DNA of 64,000 nt. Origin: a virus. The position numbers and the translations under genes were made by a program. The stretch spans positions 1 to 64,000 of the IMG/VR virus record IMGVR_UViG_3300034417_000014, one strand, 5' to 3'. The notes under the pieces were generated by a model, which worked only from the letters and a program-made list of their open reading frames with translations, searched no databases and was not told the origin of the DNA. Below are positions 5,105 through 18,996 of the stretch, in pieces. Position 1 is the first letter of the stretch. The number at the start of each line of letters is the position of its first letter.

Positions 5105-5179
5105 GCCACTGAATAAGTATTGTAACTGAAATACGAAACCGCAGCAATATATAAAGAAAAGACAAAAAACCTTAATGAT

Positions 5180-6054
5180 CTATATAGCAATGAACTCTTA
5201 TATACAGTGAATGAGCACGTATACACAATGATTGACTATAAAGAAACAATGTTTGATTGATTTATATATAGTAAAGAAGATGAATAACACGTATACAGCA
5301 CTATATAGAACATTAAAGACACGCTATATAGAGATGGAAACCCGCAAATGATGACTATATACGCACTATACATGATTGGAAACAAACAACTCATGATTGA
5401 CTATATAGTAAAGAACTTGATAGAAGCCGTATACATGCTATATAGTGCATTTAGAACGGTTTGTTATTGGATACGAAAGTGAAGAAAGAAAAGTGAAAAA
5501 CCTTGACTGTCGGTGACACACTCGGCGAACAGGCGCAGTGGCTTACACGCTTACCAGCCATCTTACCTGTTCCAGTTTTATGCCGATAACCTGTTCCACC
5601 CACTGTATAAAACCACAGTGTATACATATACAGTACACCTATTTCAGCCAAAATAACCTGCCAAAATATCCCAACCTCCAAAATCTTTCAAAAGATTCAG
5701 ACCTCCAACTTTTTTCTGCAGGTTTTTTCTGTAGAAATAGTCTGCAGATATTTTTCACAGAGATTTTTCCGCCAAAAACTCTGTCCACTTTTTCAGAACC
5801 TATTCTAATATCACTCACTCAATCTACCATCTCCCACGCATCTCCCAAGTTCCTTACAGCTCCAACTATTCCTGATAGTCCCCACTGCTCTTACAGTTCC
5901 ACTATTATGCGTCCATGTTGCTATATAGTCAATTGAATTCTTTACTATATGTCAGTTCATCATATACGTGTTTGCTATATAGTGTTCCTTCATATAGCGT
6001 ATATAGTGTATATGACTCTTTACTATATAGTGTGTATACTGTGTTGCTATATAG
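5180..6054. repeat. Mirrored clusters of palindromic CTATATAG repeats
   Basis: Exact copies at 5180, 5301, 5324, 5401, 5438 and 5921, 5975, 6023, 6047; 15-bp inverted repeat 5400-5414 / 6017-6031. Confidence 0.85.
5603..5633. promoter_or_regulatory. Tandem LexA (SOS) boxes
   Basis: CTGTATAAAACCACAG (perfect CTGT-N8-ACAG) followed by GTGTATACATATACAG. Confidence 0.6.
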
Positions 6055-6130
6055 TATGAATAATTTAATTATTTCATGTTTACGTGTTAAGCGGAGGATT
6101 AGGAAGGTGAAATGGCTGTTTGATATCAGG

Positions 6131-8231: not shown

Positions 8232-9311
8232 ATGTCGCAAGTGCTTATTAAAAACGGTTTATGGCGTGGTCAGGTAATTGAGGGCAAAGTATTTACTGTC
8301 CACAAGCCATACAATCCGGAAACGGGTTGCATCACTGTTTGGGGCTCCCCAGCTGATGGGCTTGACATGCCCGCCCCGAATAAAGTACGTGTTTCCGTTA
8401 TGGACACGAGCTGCTTCGAAATGATGGGCGAGGACACTATTTTTGTTCCCCCAACTGTTGCAACTATGCGTTCCGTGGAAGAAGAGTTCTTTGCAAGCGA
8501 AACGGAAGATGAAGCAATGACGCGCATCTCCCGGACGTTTGAGATTTTGGAAGAGATGACGGAAGCGGCGGCGTCGGGAATTGTGCGCGGCATGGTAGTG
8601 TGCGGCCCACCCGGCATTGGTAAATCCCACGGCGTTGAGAAAGTGTTAACACGTGCCAACATGTTCTCCAAGATCAAGGACGTGCGGGAACGTTACACTG
8701 TGATGAAGGGTGCAATGTCTCCCTTGGGCTTGTACCGCACGTTGTACAACTATAGCTCCAAAGACAACGTTGTTGTGCTTGACGATTGCGACAGTGTGCT
8801 GTATGACGAAGAGTGCTTGAACTTGCTTAAATCAGCTCTTGACTCCGGCGAGAAAAGAAAGCTGTGCTGGGCAAAGGAGTCGCGTGTACTTGCAGACGAA
8901 GGCATCCCCCAAACGTTTAACTTTGAGGGAAGCGTGATCTTCTTGACAAACATCTCGTTTGACAAGTCCCGCGGCAAAATTGCAGACCACTTAGCTGCAA
9001 TCCAGTCACGCTGCCATTACTTGGATTTGGAGATTAGCACCCAGCGCGATCAGATCTTGCGCATCAAGCAGATTGTGCGCGCAGGCATGTTGGACAGCTA
9101 CGGCTTTTCCAAACGTGAAGAAGAGCAAGTTGTCAACTTCATTATTGACAATGCAGACTACTTGCTGGAACTGTCGTTGCGTATGGTTAAGAAGATCGCA
9201 GACTTGCGTAAAGCTATGCCCAACCAATGGGAAGAGCTTGCTGAGGCTACGTGCTTGAAGCGTACTGCTAAGTTCGCTCGCTTGTTGAAGCATAAGCAAC
9301 AGGAAGCGTGA
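8232..9311 (+). CDS. AAA+/P-loop ATPase
   Basis: Walker A GPPGIGKS, Walker B VVVLDDCD, IFLTN sensor and SRC arginine-finger-like motif. Confidence 0.88.
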   Translation: MSQVLIKNGLWRGQVIEGKVFTVHKPYNPETGCITVWGSPADGLDMPAPNKVRVSVMDTSCFEMMGEDTIFVPPTVATMRSVEEEFFASETEDEAMTRISRTFEILEEMTEAAASGIVRGMVVCGPPGIGKSHGVEKVLTRANMFSKIKDVRERYTVMKGAMSPLGLYRTLYNYSSKDNVVVLDDCDSVLYDEECLNLLKSALDSGEKRKLCWAKESRVLADEGIPQTFNFEGSVIFLTNISFDKSRGKIADHLAAIQSRCHYLDLEISTQRDQILRIKQIVRAGMLDSYGFSKREEEQVVNFIIDNADYLLELSLRMVKKIADLRKAMPNQWEELAEATCLKRTAKFARLLKHKQQEA

Positions 9312-10262: not shown

Positions 10263-10742
10263 ATGGACTTTCTAGCTGGCGTACTGTTATCGTTCCCCGT
10301 ATGGATCATTGCGCTACTTGCCGCAGCAGGCTTGTACGATCGTGATCACAAGGTGCTACTTGCATTCTTCGCAGTCTTGTTTGCGTTCATCACTTACAAG
10401 CTGTTCCTTCCCGTCCTGGCACTGGTTCCGATTTATTACTTGATCGGCGGATACATTGCTGCAGGCGTGCTATGGTCAGTCTTTAAGTGGATCCGATACT
10501 GTGACAGCATTACCGAAATGGTACGTAAAGGATATATCAGTAAAGAGCAAGGCTTGCGCAAGATTGCGTTTGACGATAACATTTCTGACATTGTAGGTTG
10601 GGCAGCTATGTGGCCGTTCAGCTTCATTGGTACTGCATTGTATGACGTGTTTAACGTGTTTACTACGCTTATCACACGCACGTTCCGTGGAACTTATCGC
10701 GTGATCGCTGACCACTTCGCTGGGAAGATCAACAAGCTGTAA
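10263..10742 (+). CDS. Membrane protein
   Basis: Several hydrophobic helices; GAGGA RBS. Confidence 0.75.
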   Translation: MDFLAGVLLSFPVWIIALLAAAGLYDRDHKVLLAFFAVLFAFITYKLFLPVLALVPIYYLIGGYIAAGVLWSVFKWIRYCDSITEMVRKGYISKEQGLRKIAFDDNISDIVGWAAMWPFSFIGTALYDVFNVFTTLITRTFRGTYRVIADHFAGKINKL

Positions 10743-10811
10743 GAAATAGGTAGACAAGCGGGGGCAACCCCGCTATACTGTTTACACACTAAAGCAAACG
10801 AGTAAACGGAA

Positions 10812-11099
10812 ATGGCAACGAAAGCAATTAAGAACTTTGTATATGAGTGCGTTGATTCGTTTAACGAAGTGCTGGCAAAGAGTACTTGCCCTCCAGATGT
10901 GCGCCAAGGTGTTATTAACTCGGCGCAAAAGGTTCTGATGCAGGCAGGCTTATACGAAGGCTTCCGTTACTTGCCAATACATGAAGTGCCCAAAGGTCAT
11001 CGCCCGGGAATTAACTTGTTAGCTGCATCAACAGATGAACAGTTTGACAACTGTGATGAAACCCGTGTACACTTTTTTGTAGGGCATTTGGCGAACTAA
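10812..11099 (+). CDS. Hypothetical early protein
   Basis: Cassette promoter at 10751. Confidence 0.75.
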   Translation: MATKAIKNFVYECVDSFNEVLAKSTCPPDVRQGVINSAQKVLMQAGLYEGFRYLPIHEVPKGHRPGINLLAASTDEQFDNCDETRVHFFVGHLAN

Positions 11100-12510: not shown

Positions 12511-12831
12511 ATGACAAACAGCAATCCAGCAGCAATACTTGCAACGGCAAAAGAGCAAGCCAATGCAGCAATTGTTGGCAAGGCAGATGGCTACCCATGT
12601 GGCTTTGCGTGGGTTAACATTAGACCTGCGCGTGGTGAGTTTGTTTCGTATTTGAAGAAGAATGGTATTGGTCGCACTGATTCCTACGAGGGCGGTTACA
12701 GACTTAGCTCATACGAAGTGTGTAACTTCAACGGTCAAAACATTGACGTGAAGGAAGCAGGCTGTAATGCGTTTGTCGCTGTACTGCGCGCAAATGGGAT
12801 TAAAGCATACGTTGGGTCGCGGATGGACTAA
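12511..12831 (+). CDS. Conserved phage hypothetical protein
   Basis: CGFAWV...SRMD motif; cassette promoter at 12450. Confidence 0.8.
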   Translation: MTNSNPAAILATAKEQANAAIVGKADGYPCGFAWVNIRPARGEFVSYLKKNGIGRTDSYEGGYRLSSYEVCNFNGQNIDVKEAGCNAFVAVLRANGIKAYVGSRMD

Positions 12832-12860
12832 TGAAGCATTCTAAGTCAACGTAAAACCAA

Positions 12861-12884
12861 AAAGCCTGCGTAAGCGGGCTTTTT
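12861..12884 (+). terminator. Rho-independent terminator
   Basis: AAAGCCTGC-GTAA-GCGGGCTTT-TT. Confidence 0.8.
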
Positions 12885-12949
12885 AACGGTTGACATTCCA
12901 GTTCCTATTCACTATACTGTTTGAACATTAACTAGCACAGGCGCTAAAC

Positions 12950-15195: not shown

Positions 15196-15584
15196 CATTC
15201 CTCTTAGCAACCACTAACGTTATTGCATACTCGAAGAACACATTGCCAGCTAGTCAAAGGGCAGCGATTGTCAAGACACAAAAACTGAAGCATCCTATCT
15301 ACAACAAGGTGACGAAGAGGTTTCGTTGGGTAGGCGAAGGTTTGATCCCAGAGCACCTAACTATTGCCAAAGGTCAAGTGGTTAAGGTAGAAACCTTTTG
15401 GGGCGAGAGGAAGATGGCTCGCTTTAAGGAAGACTACACCACATACTACTTAGAAGGTGAATGTGAGCTGGTTGACGAGGACAAGTTTTTCATTTATAAT
15501 GGCGAACAACATTTAATGAACAAGCATGGCATTAAGCGTTTAAAAGTATACAAGCGTTGGAAACAAAAAGTTGACAACAGCTAA
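15111..15584 (+). CDS. Hypothetical protein (true start probably after 15220)
   Basis: Open frame; candidate promoter at 15192 implies a later start. Confidence 0.5.
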   Translation: MVLFWLCVSCINDPVPFDCSGSEEDSVLTFLLATTNVIAYSKNTLPASQRAAIVKTQKLKHPIYNKVTKRFRWVGEGLIPEHLTIAKGQVVKVETFWGERKMARFKEDYTTYYLEGECELVDEDKFFIYNGEQHLMNKHGIKRLKVYKRWKQKVDNS

Positions 15585-15599
15585 CTGACGGAGGCACAA

Positions 15600-15839
15600 T
15601 TGAATACGTTGAAACAACTGCAGAATCGTTTGTTAGACTATGCAGAGTTCCATCCGGGACGTGGCATTGATGTTAAGTTAATTGAAAAAGCAGACTTGAC
15701 GGCAACACTAAAGCTGTATAGAATACACTTGCAGGACGATGCACTAACTGCGCAAGCTGAACGTGAACTGATCCGTGAAGCAAAGGAAACGTTAAAGAAA
15801 TTGCAACCAAAGAATGTCGGCGATGGTGTAGAGCATTAA
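15600..15839 (+). CDS. Hypothetical protein
   Basis: GGAGG RBS with TTG start. Confidence 0.7.
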   Translation: MNTLKQLQNRLLDYAEFHPGRGIDVKLIEKADLTATLKLYRIHLQDDALTAQAERELIREAKETLKKLQPKNVGDGVEH

Positions 15840-15875
15840 GGTAGTTTGACTGGTTGACTATGGGCATGTATACGA

Positions 15876-16174
15876 TTGCGAAAGCAAATGTGCCCTCTGT
15901 CGTTGACTACCTTGCGGCATTGCTTTACACTGTGGACAAGAATGGCCGTATGCGGCTACGTGCACCAGGGCGGCAAAACGCTGGGAGAATACATGATGTA
16001 GTAGATGCACCGTCCAGGTGCCCAAAAGGGAAACCTGCGGGGACTACAGTTGACTGTATTCGAACGCAAGGGCAGGGGTGAGCGTACAAATCCCCGCACT
16101 AATTCACCGTTGCATGGAGTCTAAACGCCCCGCTGTGCAACGATCTCAAGGCACCCGCTACGCTACAGTGCCTT
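15876..16174 (+). ncRNA. Candidate highly structured ~300-nt ncRNA
   Basis: Nested helices TGCCCT/AGGGCA, GAATACA/TGTATTC, TGTAGT/ACTACA, GCACC/GGTGC, CGTTGCA/TGCAACG, AAGGCAC/GTGCCTT; GAAA tetraloops; no RBS-supported ORF. Confidence 0.6.
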
Positions 16175-16258
16175 CCTGCTAGTAATAAAACAAAAGAGTT
16201 GACTTCCCACATTAGTTCCACTATACTGTTTACATGTTAAACAAGTGGAGCAAAGCAA

Positions 16259-16582
16259 ATGGTACTGTTTACTGTAGCTAAAGGCACTAAGGGCATGGTC
16301 ATGCGCAAGTGTGGACTTACTATTAAGCCTTGGGTAACCAGACACGAGCTAGTGTTTGATCGTGAAGAGTTGTTACTGGATCCAGTAACCTTCCAGAACA
16401 AGAACAGTTTGTTCAATACGCAAATTGACTTGTGGCACGAAATGACTACACAGATGCGTGAAGTATCCGGCGACCAAGTTAAGACAGCAATCATATACGC
16501 CGAGAAAGGATACAGTGTGTTCATCCGCGATGGCATACTTCTCATTATACCATTTGTTAACGCACCAGTAATGGAAAGCTAA
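16259..16582 (+). CDS. Hypothetical early protein
   Basis: Cassette promoter at 16199. Confidence 0.75.
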   Translation: MVLFTVAKGTKGMVMRKCGLTIKPWVTRHELVFDREELLLDPVTFQNKNSLFNTQIDLWHEMTTQMREVSGDQVKTAIIYAEKGYSVFIRDGILLIIPFVNAPVMES

Positions 16583-17259: not shown

Positions 17260-17288
17260 AAAATACTCCCACCTGGGAGTATTTTTTT
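17260..17288 (+). terminator. Rho-independent terminator
   Basis: AAAATACTCCCA-CC-TGGGAGTATTTT-TTT. Confidence 0.85.
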
Positions 17289-17351
17289 GACTTGACTTTC
17301 CACATTAGTTCCACTACAATGTCTACATAGTAAACAAACGGAGCAGCAAAG

Positions 17352-18469: not shown

Positions 18470-18811
18470 ATGTACTACATCATGAATGCAAAGGCACTGT
18501 TCGGCGGCAAAGTAACGCTAGAGCGTGTAATGATGGAGATGGGCGATTCCGAATCGATCAACACCATCCTTGTTTGTCGTCGTGAGAAAGGCATTGGCGA
18601 ATGGAAACCAATTTTTGTTTCCGGTGCAGGCAAAGGCTACGCTACGGAACAAAGTGCTGCAAGCTACACTGAAGACACTGGTATGGGTCACCGGAACAAA
18701 GGTAAAGACTTACAGATTGACAATGTGATAACGTACATGAACGGCCACATTGTTAGCAAGCTAAACGATATTGGTGTTGACGAGAAGCGTAGCTGCTGGG
18801 TGATGAAGTAG
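18470..18811 (+). CDS. Hypothetical early protein
   Basis: Cassette promoter at 18409, GGAG RBS. Confidence 0.75.
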   Translation: MYYIMNAKALFGGKVTLERVMMEMGDSESINTILVCRREKGIGEWKPIFVSGAGKGYATEQSAASYTEDTGMGHRNKGKDLQIDNVITYMNGHIVSKLNDIGVDEKRSCWVMK

Positions 18812-18846
18812 TTGACATGCTAATAGCTTTACGTTATAATATTAAC

Positions 18847-18923
18847 ATATTGTAACGTAAGGCAAGAAAAACCCGTAGTAGCTCGCCCCGTCAACCAACT
18901 GAGCCCGCGCAATGCGGGCTTTC
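18847..18923 (+). ncRNA. Candidate small RNA (~77 nt)
   Basis: TTGACA(18812)-17-TATAAT, then no ORF, then terminator GAGCCCGC-GCAAT-GCGGGCTT. Confidence 0.5.
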
Positions 18924-18996
18924 ATCTATTTAAATGTTGACATTCCACTTTCAGTCCACTATAATGTTTACACACTAAACAACTAGGTACAAGCAA

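What the first reader, a model, noticed from the sequence alone, without database searches (positions are those of the whole stretch)
15876..16174. Unannotated ~300-nt multi-branched structured RNA
Seen: a GC-richer island with nested helices. TGCCCT/AGGGCA encloses GCCG/CGGC, CCAG/CTGG and GAATACA/TGTATTC; the last encloses TGTAGT/ACTACA with GCACC/GGTGC and AGG-GAAA-CCT. Three 3' hairpins follow (GGGG/CCCC, CGTTGCA/TGCAACG, AAGGCAC/GTGCCTT). A weak promoter match lies at 15846. I do not recognise it as tRNA, tmRNA or RNase P. Inference: a novel phage ncRNA, ribozyme or protein sponge.
Basis: partly seen in the sequence, partly recalled or inferred. Interest (0 to 1): 0.7.

Follow-up and report, generated by a model that had tools for sequence, protein, structure and literature searches.

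The report
GC-rich gene-free gap, fold unproven
A roughly 400-base gene-free, GC-rich gap between two early genes of an uncultured giant phage really is non-coding, but its proposed elaborate RNA fold is no better than chance, so it is most likely leftover promoter-cassette DNA rather than a proven new RNA.

Summary
The window is the first 64 kb of an 89.8-kb uncultured jumbo-phage record. Its nearest named relative is Pseudomonas phage PA5oct (39% aa identity in a baseplate protein).

**Confirmed:**
- 15931-16180 is the most GC-rich 250-nt window of the record (0.56).
- The stretch looks non-coding. It has no codon periodicity. ORF 15860-16081 has no homologue. In three other soil metagenomes that ORF carries an in-frame stop.

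**Not confirmed:**
- The fold is no better than shuffled sequence: z +0.30 on the + strand, -0.05 on the - strand.
- The ensemble is ill-defined and changes with the boundaries chosen.
- The closing helix is hit by three substitutions in the variants, with no compensating change listed.
- There is no Rfam match, no terminator and no homologue anywhere searched.

**New here:** the 5' part holds two truncated copies of the phage's repeated promoter-leader cassette. The second (15903-15931) is a plausible promoter aimed at the GC-rich block.

**Verdict:**
- Cassette debris plus an orphan spacer, passively transcribed: about 0.5.
- A genuine early ncRNA: about 0.25.
- Covariation and transcription could not be tested.
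- Interest is low.

The parts
15600..15839 (+). upstream small early gene (79 aa, P0001), no known family
   Evidence: Period-3 signal 3.14. No X2 variant is listed in 15590-15811.
15846..15890 (+). truncated promoter-leader cassette A: -35 TTGACT 15846-51, poor -10 TATACG 15869-74, then the leader-end 10-mer with ATG at 15888; the middle of the leader with the Shine-Dalgarno is missing
   Evidence: The 10-mer AAAGCAAATG occurs 6 times in 89.8 kb, all on the + strand. Five sit at cassette ends and the sixth is here. Alignment; PWM 2.8. A cassette HMM does not reach it at E <= 100. The stretch is hypervariable in other strains.
15872..15892 (+). small hairpin with GAAA loop inside cassette A
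   Evidence: z -2.43, 8 of 200 shuffles. Strain variants change six of its bases. By hand they can still form an extended stem in a shifted register (inference).
15903..15944 (+). truncated cassette B: plausible sigma70 promoter TTGACT-17-TACACT (15903-15931), start of the leader, then ATG 15942 without the leader middle; predicted start of transcription about 15938
   Evidence: 9 of 12. PWM 15.2, rank 58 of all + strand positions and within the range of the 40 training promoters. The -10/leader-start motif occurs 6 times on the + strand, including 15926 and 16222. Alignment. Both hexamers are untouched by the listed variants.
15931..16180 (+).
   Evidence: Top 250-nt GC window of the record. 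Period-3 0.71, 8th percentile. z +0.43. No variant is listed in 15919-16185 in X2, but 5 of that contig's 10 differences are not shown.
15986..16062 (+). 77-nt stem-loop (GAATACA/TGTATTC closing helix), the best-folding sub-element
   Evidence: z -3.03, 2 of 200 shuffles, chosen after the fact. Covariance model R1 finds only itself in the record and nothing in 5 related records.
16108..16174 (+). two 3' hairpins (16108-16142 and 16148-16174), not followed by a T run
   Evidence: z -2.38 and -1.89. The terminator scan finds nothing here.
15860..16081 (+). ORF of 73 aa (P0005) called in the source record; judged spurious
   Evidence: Singleton cluster. No homologue. Codon score 0.026. In-frame TGA in variants.
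16199..16258 (+). intact promoter-leader-RBS cassette of the next gene
   Evidence: 12 copies found in the record. HMM E 3e-17. PWM 42.7, rank 5.
16259..16582 (+). downstream small early gene (107 aa, P0002)
   Evidence: Its middle is diverged in run X2.

Best explanation
The 419-nt gap (15840-16258) is a non-coding scar in a hyperplastic array of one-gene early cassettes.

Anatomy:
- Two truncated copies of the phage's own promoter-leader cassette: A at 15846-15890 and B at 15903-15944.
- After them, an orphan GC-rich block of about 240 nt (15931-16180) that no longer, or never, codes for protein.

How it most likely works:
- The stretch is carried on early transcripts that read through from the upstream promoters (15472, 15571, 15696), and probably also on transcripts from the internal promoter at 15903.
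- These transcripts run on into the next cassette and gene, because no terminator intervenes before 17260.
- The helices seen by eye are what any 55% GC sequence of this length provides. At most a few local hairpins (15986-16062, 16108-16142, 16148-16174) may affect mRNA stability.

Shown: cassette motifs, no conserved ORF, no periodicity, fold at the level of shuffles, variants that break the closing helix.

Inferred: origin by recombination or deletion between cassettes, and passive transcription.
For: **Array context**
- The promoter-leader cassette is repeated at least 12 times. There are 46 TTGAC.-N16-18-TA.A.T sites in the whole record, 43 of them in the array at 6-39 kb.
- A cassette HMM gives 38 hits at E < 0.01.

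**Partial cassettes inside the gap**
- The 10-mer AAAGCAAATG is otherwise found only at five cassette ends. The -10/leader-start motif also occurs here (alignment).
- TTGACT occurs 5 times on the + strand in 371 nt, the densest spot of the record.

**Non-coding**
- Period-3 is 0.46-1.34 against 3.1-8.1 for eight genes of the region.
- The ORF is a singleton and carries an in-frame stop in variants.

**No fold signal**
- z is +0.30, -0.05, -1.23 and +0.43.
- The blind scan does not single the region out.
- Positive controls do better: three tRNAs of the window give z -2.0 to -2.9, and PA5oct ncRNA002 gives z -4.05.

**Strain variants**
- Cassette A (15865-15918) has 3 indel events and 6 substitutions.

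**No terminator**.

**Literature**
- Recombination between PeSL cassettes causes insertions, deletions and replacements in T4-type hyperplastic regions (PMC2839356, abstract and one passage).
Against: - Debris is usually AT-rich, yet this block is the most GC-rich 250 nt of the record. At 0.56 it is like the phage's tRNAs (0.53-0.60) and unlike other ORF-poor gaps (0.30-0.47).
- A plausible promoter ends 7 nt before the GC-rich block begins.
- The block is kept in at least one other soil metagenome (X2), with no variant listed in 15919-16185. However, the divergence is patchy: the neighbouring gene 15600-15811 is equally invariant, while 15245-15512 carries 21 changes.
- The cassette HMM does not detect copies A or B, so the 'truncated cassette' reading rests on short motifs.
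- Three sub-hairpins reach tRNA-like z-scores.
- The PA5oct lineage does express ORF-free stretches of 236-619 nt (PMC7318152, Table 1).
Confidence: 0.5

Rival explanations
1. A genuine early non-coding RNA of about 240 nt. It would be transcribed from the cassette-type promoter at 15903 (start near 15938) and occupy a 'gene slot' of the array. It would be matured by processing rather than by an intrinsic terminator, and would act through local hairpins, by protein binding or antisense pairing, rather than through one large multi-branched fold. It would be analogous to the RNA-seq-defined lncRNAs of PA5oct.
For: - The block is ORF-poor, aperiodic and the GC-richest of the record, at tRNA-like GC.
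- A plausible promoter lies immediately upstream, with both hexamers unchanged in variants.
- Synteny is kept in 3 other metagenome runs, and no variant is listed in 15919-16185.
- Sub-elements give z -3.03, -2.38 and -1.89.
- PA5oct has four ORF-free transcribed regions, two of them making up 1.2-5.1% of phage reads (PMC7318152).
Against: - Whole-unit z is +0.43 with an ill-defined ensemble.
- The - strand folds equally well.
- No terminator.
- No Rfam hit better than E 1.3.
- No similarity to the PA5oct ncRNAs.
- No hit of model R1 in 5 related records, nor of blastn in phages, plasmids or E. coli.
- The invariance in X2 is matched by the neighbouring gene, so it does not show constraint.
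- The complementarity to the start of gene 18470 is within chance: 6.5% of 2241 control windows do as well.
Confidence: 0.25
2. A small protein gene: either the 73-aa ORF 15860-16081 called in the source record, or a micro-ORF such as ATG 15942-16001 (19 aa) behind cassette B.
For: - The ORF was called by the record's gene caller.
- Its codon score (0.026) lies inside the range of neighbouring small genes (-0.19 to 0.27).
- The indels in variants sum to +3 nt.
- ATG 15942 is followed by GCC, like cassette genes that start Met-Ala.
Against: - There is no Shine-Dalgarno and no intact leader.
- Variants carry an in-frame TGA at 15890-15892.
- The cluster is a singleton, and there is no homologue of 40-128 aa.
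- The only three phmmer hits are to unrelated long repetitive proteins, each matching a different 18-40-aa repeat.
- No Pfam or PHROG hit reaches a curated cut-off.
- Period-3 is 1.07, the 18th percentile.
Confidence: 0.1
3. A DNA-level element, for example a cluster of -35-like hexamers that binds the host RNA polymerase sigma subunit or a phage regulator, or a recombination hot spot of the cassette array.
For: Five TTGACT on the + strand and none on the - strand within 371 nt. Only windows around this site reach 4 or more in the 89.8-kb record.
Against: - Two of the five are accounted for by real or plausible promoters (15903, 16199), and two by the tandem pair of cassette A.
- The site at 16050 has no -10 partner (PWM -26.4).
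- No repeat family other than the cassette maps here.
Confidence: 0.1

Closest known systems
Putative lncRNAs ncRNA001-004 of Pseudomonas phage PA5oct (Lood et al. 2020, PMC7318152; annotated in MK797984.1)
   Same: - They are ORF-free stretches of a few hundred nt (236, 451, 604 and 619 nt as annotated).
- Three of the four (ncRNA001, 002 and 003) lie between or beside small + strand genes. ncRNA004 lies between - strand genes.
- They belong to a jumbo phage of the same broad lineage (39% aa identity in the baseplate wedge).
- They have no known family.
   Different: - The PA5oct regions were defined by RNA-seq. Here there is no expression evidence.
- There is no sequence similarity: best blastn E 1.2, nhmmer E 3.2.
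- PA5oct ncRNA002 folds far better than shuffles (z -4.05), whereas the target does not (z +0.3).
- The paper says those regions lack known promoters. Here a plausible one lies upstream.
PeSL (promoter-early stem-loop) regulatory cassettes of hyperplastic regions in T4-type phages (Arbiol et al. 2010, PMC2839356; Comeau et al. 2014, PMC4122927)
   Same: Repeated strong sigma70-like promoter cassettes flank small ORFan genes, and recombination between cassettes creates deletions and replacements. The target gap holds two partial cassettes and sits in such an array.
   Different: - The cassette here is promoter + conserved leader + RBS. I did not test for a terminator stem-loop in each copy.
- The phage is a distant PA5oct-like jumbo phage, not a Tevenvirinae member.
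- The partial copies are too short for the HMM to detect.
EGFOA RNA (Rfam RF02955)
   Same: It is the best weak Rfam alignment on the + strand, over 15992-16098.
   Different: 15.4 bits against a gathering score of 37.7, E 3.2. This is a chance-level match, and the target is not a member.

Membership tests
Any Rfam 15 family (4227 models) | score at or above the family's gathering threshold | tested here: not met
   Only three tRNAs elsewhere in the window pass. With permissive filters on 15700-16350 the best hits are E 1.3, 3.2 and 8, all far below gathering.
Structured ncRNA (general criteria) | fold more stable than dinucleotide shuffles, on the sense strand | tested here: not met
   z +0.30 (+ strand), -0.05 (- strand), -1.23 (15889-16076), +0.43 (15938-16176). 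Controls: tRNAs -2.0 to -2.9.
Structured ncRNA (general criteria) | compensatory base changes in helices among homologues | not testable with these tools
- The only variant data list 9 events, all in 15865-15918.
- Three of these hit the closing helix, with no partner change listed.
Promoter-to-terminator sRNA unit | own promoter and an intrinsic terminator | tested here: not met
   A promoter is plausible at 15903. No terminator-like site lies between 15840 and 16260; the nearest on the + strand is at 17260.
PA5oct-type putative lncRNA | transcribed region lacking a plausible ORF, shown by RNA-seq | not testable with these tools
   The ORF-free part is met. No RNA run holds the sequence.
PA5oct-type putative lncRNA | sequence or structure homology to ncRNA001-004 | tested here: not met
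   blastn and nhmmer against the four loci give best E 1.2 and 3.2. Model R1 gives no hit in the whole PA5oct record.
PeSL-like cassette array (context of the gap) | repeated sigma70-type promoter cassettes flanking small genes | tested here: met
   12 blastn copies, the promoter list, and 38 HMM hits at E < 0.01.
PeSL-like cassette array (context of the gap) | partial cassette copies inside the gap itself | tested here: inconclusive
   The short motifs are specific: the 10-mer occurs 6 times and the 13-nt pattern 6 times in the record. The alignment is plausible. But the cassette HMM finds nothing in 15840-16190 at E <= 100.
Protein-coding gene (ORF 15860-16081) | conserved open frame, homologues, codon periodicity | tested here: not met
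   - In-frame TGA in variants.
- Singleton cluster and no homologue.
- Only repeat-inflated chance hits.
- Period-3 1.07.

The most novel reading that the evidence does not exclude
15938-16180 is a stand-alone early ncRNA gene that occupies a cassette slot of the array. It would be driven by the cassette-derived promoter at 15903 and kept GC-rich by selection on local structure, and it would be conserved among soil strains. That would make it the first PA5oct-lineage 'lncRNA' with a defined promoter. It might pair with the first codons of the early gene at 18470, through 12-nt and 10-nt perfect complementarity.
Probability: 0.25. Interest if true: 0.5.

Novelty: new member of a known kind. Interest (0 to 1): 0.22.

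Why it matters
If it is only cassette debris, it is a small illustration of how promoter-cassette arrays in giant phages lose genes and leave scars. That is useful for annotation: the 73-aa ORF called in the source record should probably be dropped. Otherwise it is ordinary.

If the GC-rich block is a real RNA, it would add a promoter-defined example to the ORF-free transcripts that RNA-seq found in PA5oct, whose function is unknown. Nothing found here makes a long-standing question directly testable.

Tried and rejected
**Known RNA family.** Rejected.

**Homologues by DNA.** None found.
- blastn 'distant' against phages (1001-nt query), plasmids and E. coli genomes gave no match.
- DNA search of 5 related IMG/VR records gave one 19-nt match at E 0.44, which is chance.
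- Exact patterns in viral contigs and metagenome contigs gave 0 hits.

**Homologues by synteny.** None could be fetched.
- The flank proteins P0001 and P0002 have no relatives in viral contigs.
- P0002 has one homologue, P0004 (64% identity, a 7.5-kb JGI contig). I could not fetch it from metagenome contigs or viral contigs.

**Covariance model.** Model R1 of the 77-nt element gave 0 of 5 related records at E <= 10 and only itself in its own record.

**Expression.** No RNA holder was listed among the 4 runs. All laid runs were contigs.

**Decayed paralogue.** tblastn of the ORFs of 40 aa or more in the record (569 found, those overlapping the gap left out) against the gap gave a best E of 7.7e-4 in a 361-nt database. 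After correcting for that many queries this is not significant.

**Other protein evidence.**
- tblastn of the ORF against phages gave a best E of 5.
- In Pfam and PHROGs, only two Pfam matches appeared, both below cut-off, on other frames.

**Antisense to the conserved leaders.**
- The duplex z against 13 leaders ranged from -3.14 to +0.82. Only one was below -3.
- That pairing is 12 + 10 nt with the start of gene 18470. It is matched or beaten by 6.5% of 2241 control windows, so I rejected it as evidence.

**T4 MotA-type middle promoter at 15921.** The 7-mer is mostly the reverse complement of the cassette leader and shows no + strand promoter pattern. Rejected.

**Conservation in X2 as a sign of constraint.** Rejected.
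- Divergence is patchy. There are 21 changes in 15245-15512 (12 third, 5 second and 4 first codon positions). There is 1 at 15589, and none are listed in 15590-15811.
- Five of the 10 differences of the X2 contig over 15893-16290 are not shown.

**Papers.**
- Supplementary tables of PMC7318152 (promoters and terminators of PA5oct) were not opened.
- I recalled two points without seeing the papers: that MFE alone is a weak detector of ncRNAs (Rivas and Eddy 2000), and that GC islands mark RNAs in AT-rich genomes (Klein et al. 2002).

Full report
**Context.** The window is bases 1-64000 of an 89,846-bp IMG/VR virus record rated about 25% complete.
- It carries T4-like tail and baseplate genes and a 3766-aa ORF.
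- Its baseplate wedge protein is 39% identical to that of the jumbo Pseudomonas phage PA5oct. It is at most 44% identical to anything in IMG/VR, so no close relative is on hand.
- The target lies in a long array of small + strand genes. Almost every gene there has its own near-consensus sigma70 promoter plus a conserved leader and RBS. The cassette in front of the next gene (16199-16258) has 11 further copies in the record. An HMM built from 16 copies finds 38 places at E < 0.01.
- The gap runs from the stop of gene 15600-15839 to the start of gene 16259-16582, which is 419 nt.

**The observation.**
- The stretch is GC-rich. GC over 15876-16174 is 0.545 against a record mean of 0.41. 15931-16180 is the single most GC-rich 250-nt window of the record (0.56), although coding windows follow closely at 0.556 and 0.548.
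- The helices are not more than chance. Whole-region z-scores are +0.30 (+ strand) and -0.05 (- strand). The enclosed 'multi-branch' part gives -1.23.
- A transcript-like unit, 15938-16176, gives +0.43. It has a completely different MFE and a nearly empty centroid.
- In a blind 80-nt scan of 460 windows, the target windows lie between -2.55 and +0.84, while 15 other windows reach -3 or lower.
- Positive controls behave as structured RNAs should. The three tRNAs of the window give z -2.0 to -2.9 with well-defined ensembles. PA5oct ncRNA002 gives z -4.05.
- Three sub-elements chosen after the fact reach z -3.03, -2.38 and -1.89. That many are to be expected from picking the best pieces of 360 nt.

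**Coding or not.** The evidence says not coding.
- The ORF from ATG 15860 (73 aa) was gene-called in the source record but is a singleton cluster.
- It has no homologue of 40-128 aa among 5.8 billion clusters.
- In 1.84 billion representatives it hits only three unrelated, long, repetitive proteins. Each matches a different 18-40-residue repeat, so these are repeat-inflated chance hits.
- Pfam, PHROGs and tblastn against phages give nothing.
- Period-3 power is 0.46-1.34 across the gap, against 3.1-8.1 for eight genes of the region.
- Contigs from three other soil metagenomes (X2-X4) carry the locus. In them, substitutions at 15888-15892 create a TGA in the ORF's frame and also remove the ATG at 15888.

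**What the 5' part is.**
- 15846-15890 has TTGACT, then a poor -10 seventeen bases later, then the 10-mer that otherwise occurs only at the ends of five intact cassettes, including their ATG. The leader middle with the Shine-Dalgarno is missing.
- 15903-15944 has TTGACT-17-TACACT followed by the typical first bases of the leader, and then directly an ATG-GCC. Its promoter score falls within the range of the array's promoters (PWM 15.2, rank 58).
- I read these as two truncated cassettes. That is the kind of scar expected where cassettes recombine, as described for PeSL cassettes of T4-type phages (PMC2839356, abstract and one passage; PMC4122927, listing only).
- The caveat is that the cassette HMM does not reach either copy.
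- This 5' part is also the hypervariable part among strains, with three indel events and six substitutions in 15865-15918.

**What the 3' part is.**
- The block 15931-16180 is unexplained by sequence alone. It is GC-rich, aperiodic, without a terminator and without an Rfam match.
- It has no similarity to anything in phages, plasmids or E. coli, to the four PA5oct ncRNA loci, or to five related IMG/VR records.
- In X2 no variant is listed between 15919 and 16185. However, 5 of that contig's 10 differences are not shown. The adjacent gene segment 15590-15811 is equally invariant, while 15245-15512 carries 21 changes. The pattern is therefore mosaic and says nothing about constraint.
Nothing is listed at 16069-16074 in the contig that spans both sides.

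**Weighing.**
- For an RNA: the block is non-coding yet the GC-richest of the record, a plausible promoter points at it, and the lineage has a precedent. PA5oct has four RNA-seq-defined ORF-free regions, two of which account for 1.2-5.1% of phage reads (PMC7318152, Table 1 and passages).
- Against a structured RNA: the fold statistics on both strands, the unstable ensemble, the missing terminator, and the broken closing helix.
- My estimates are about 0.5 for cassette debris plus an orphan spacer that is passively transcribed, 0.25 for a real early ncRNA acting through local hairpins, 0.1 for a small protein, and 0.1 for a DNA-level element such as the unusual cluster of five TTGACT hexamers.

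**Limits.**
- Read laying could be used once and showed only part of the differences.
- No RNA run holds the sequence.
- No covariation test was possible.

**Earlier notes of this scan.**
- Earlier notes on the same genome had already described the cassette array and mentioned PeSLs. I re-derived the array independently.
- The scan holds no look-alike of the target on other DNA.

Noticed in passing
window 18800-18979: Strongest + strand fold signal of the 9.8-19 kb scan (z -4.6 at 18820-18899). It is a far better structure candidate than the target.
   Followed up: partly
window 12820-12939 and 10720-10839: Two further stretches with z of -3.9 to -4.1 on the + strand, at the ends of genes 12511-12831 and 10263-10742. 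They are possibly terminator or cassette stem-loops.
   Followed up: no
window 16259-16582: The downstream gene is mosaic. In run X2 its middle 250 nt are 'same length, diverged' while both ends are kept. Its only homologue, P0004, is 64% identical overall with identical last 16 residues.
   Followed up: partly
window 15846-16204: Five TTGACT hexamers on the + strand and none on the - strand within 371 nt. This is the densest spot of the 89.8-kb record.
   Followed up: partly
window 15992-16003 and 16165-16174 versus 18473-18500: 12-nt and 10-nt perfect complementarity of the target to the first codons of the gene starting at ATG 18470. 6.5% of 2241 control windows do as well.
   Followed up: yes
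L019:952-1402 (PA5oct MK797984.1 21951-22401): PA5oct ncRNA002 folds far better than shuffles (z -4.05, 0 of 100), with long well-defined helices. ncRNA001 gives z -1.96.
   Followed up: partly
window 17260-17285: A canonical 11-bp hairpin with flanking A and T runs (bidirectional terminator shape) lies directly before the promoter at 17292. It is the first terminator-like site downstream of the target.
   Followed up: no
window 5105-6060 versus PA5oct 246116-246734: PA5oct ncRNA004 lies about 2 kb upstream of its 'thioredoxin' gene. The homologue of that gene here is 8232-9311, and an ORF-poor 950-nt stretch noted earlier lies about 2-3 kb upstream of it. The two may be positionally equivalent; I did not compare them.
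   Followed up: no
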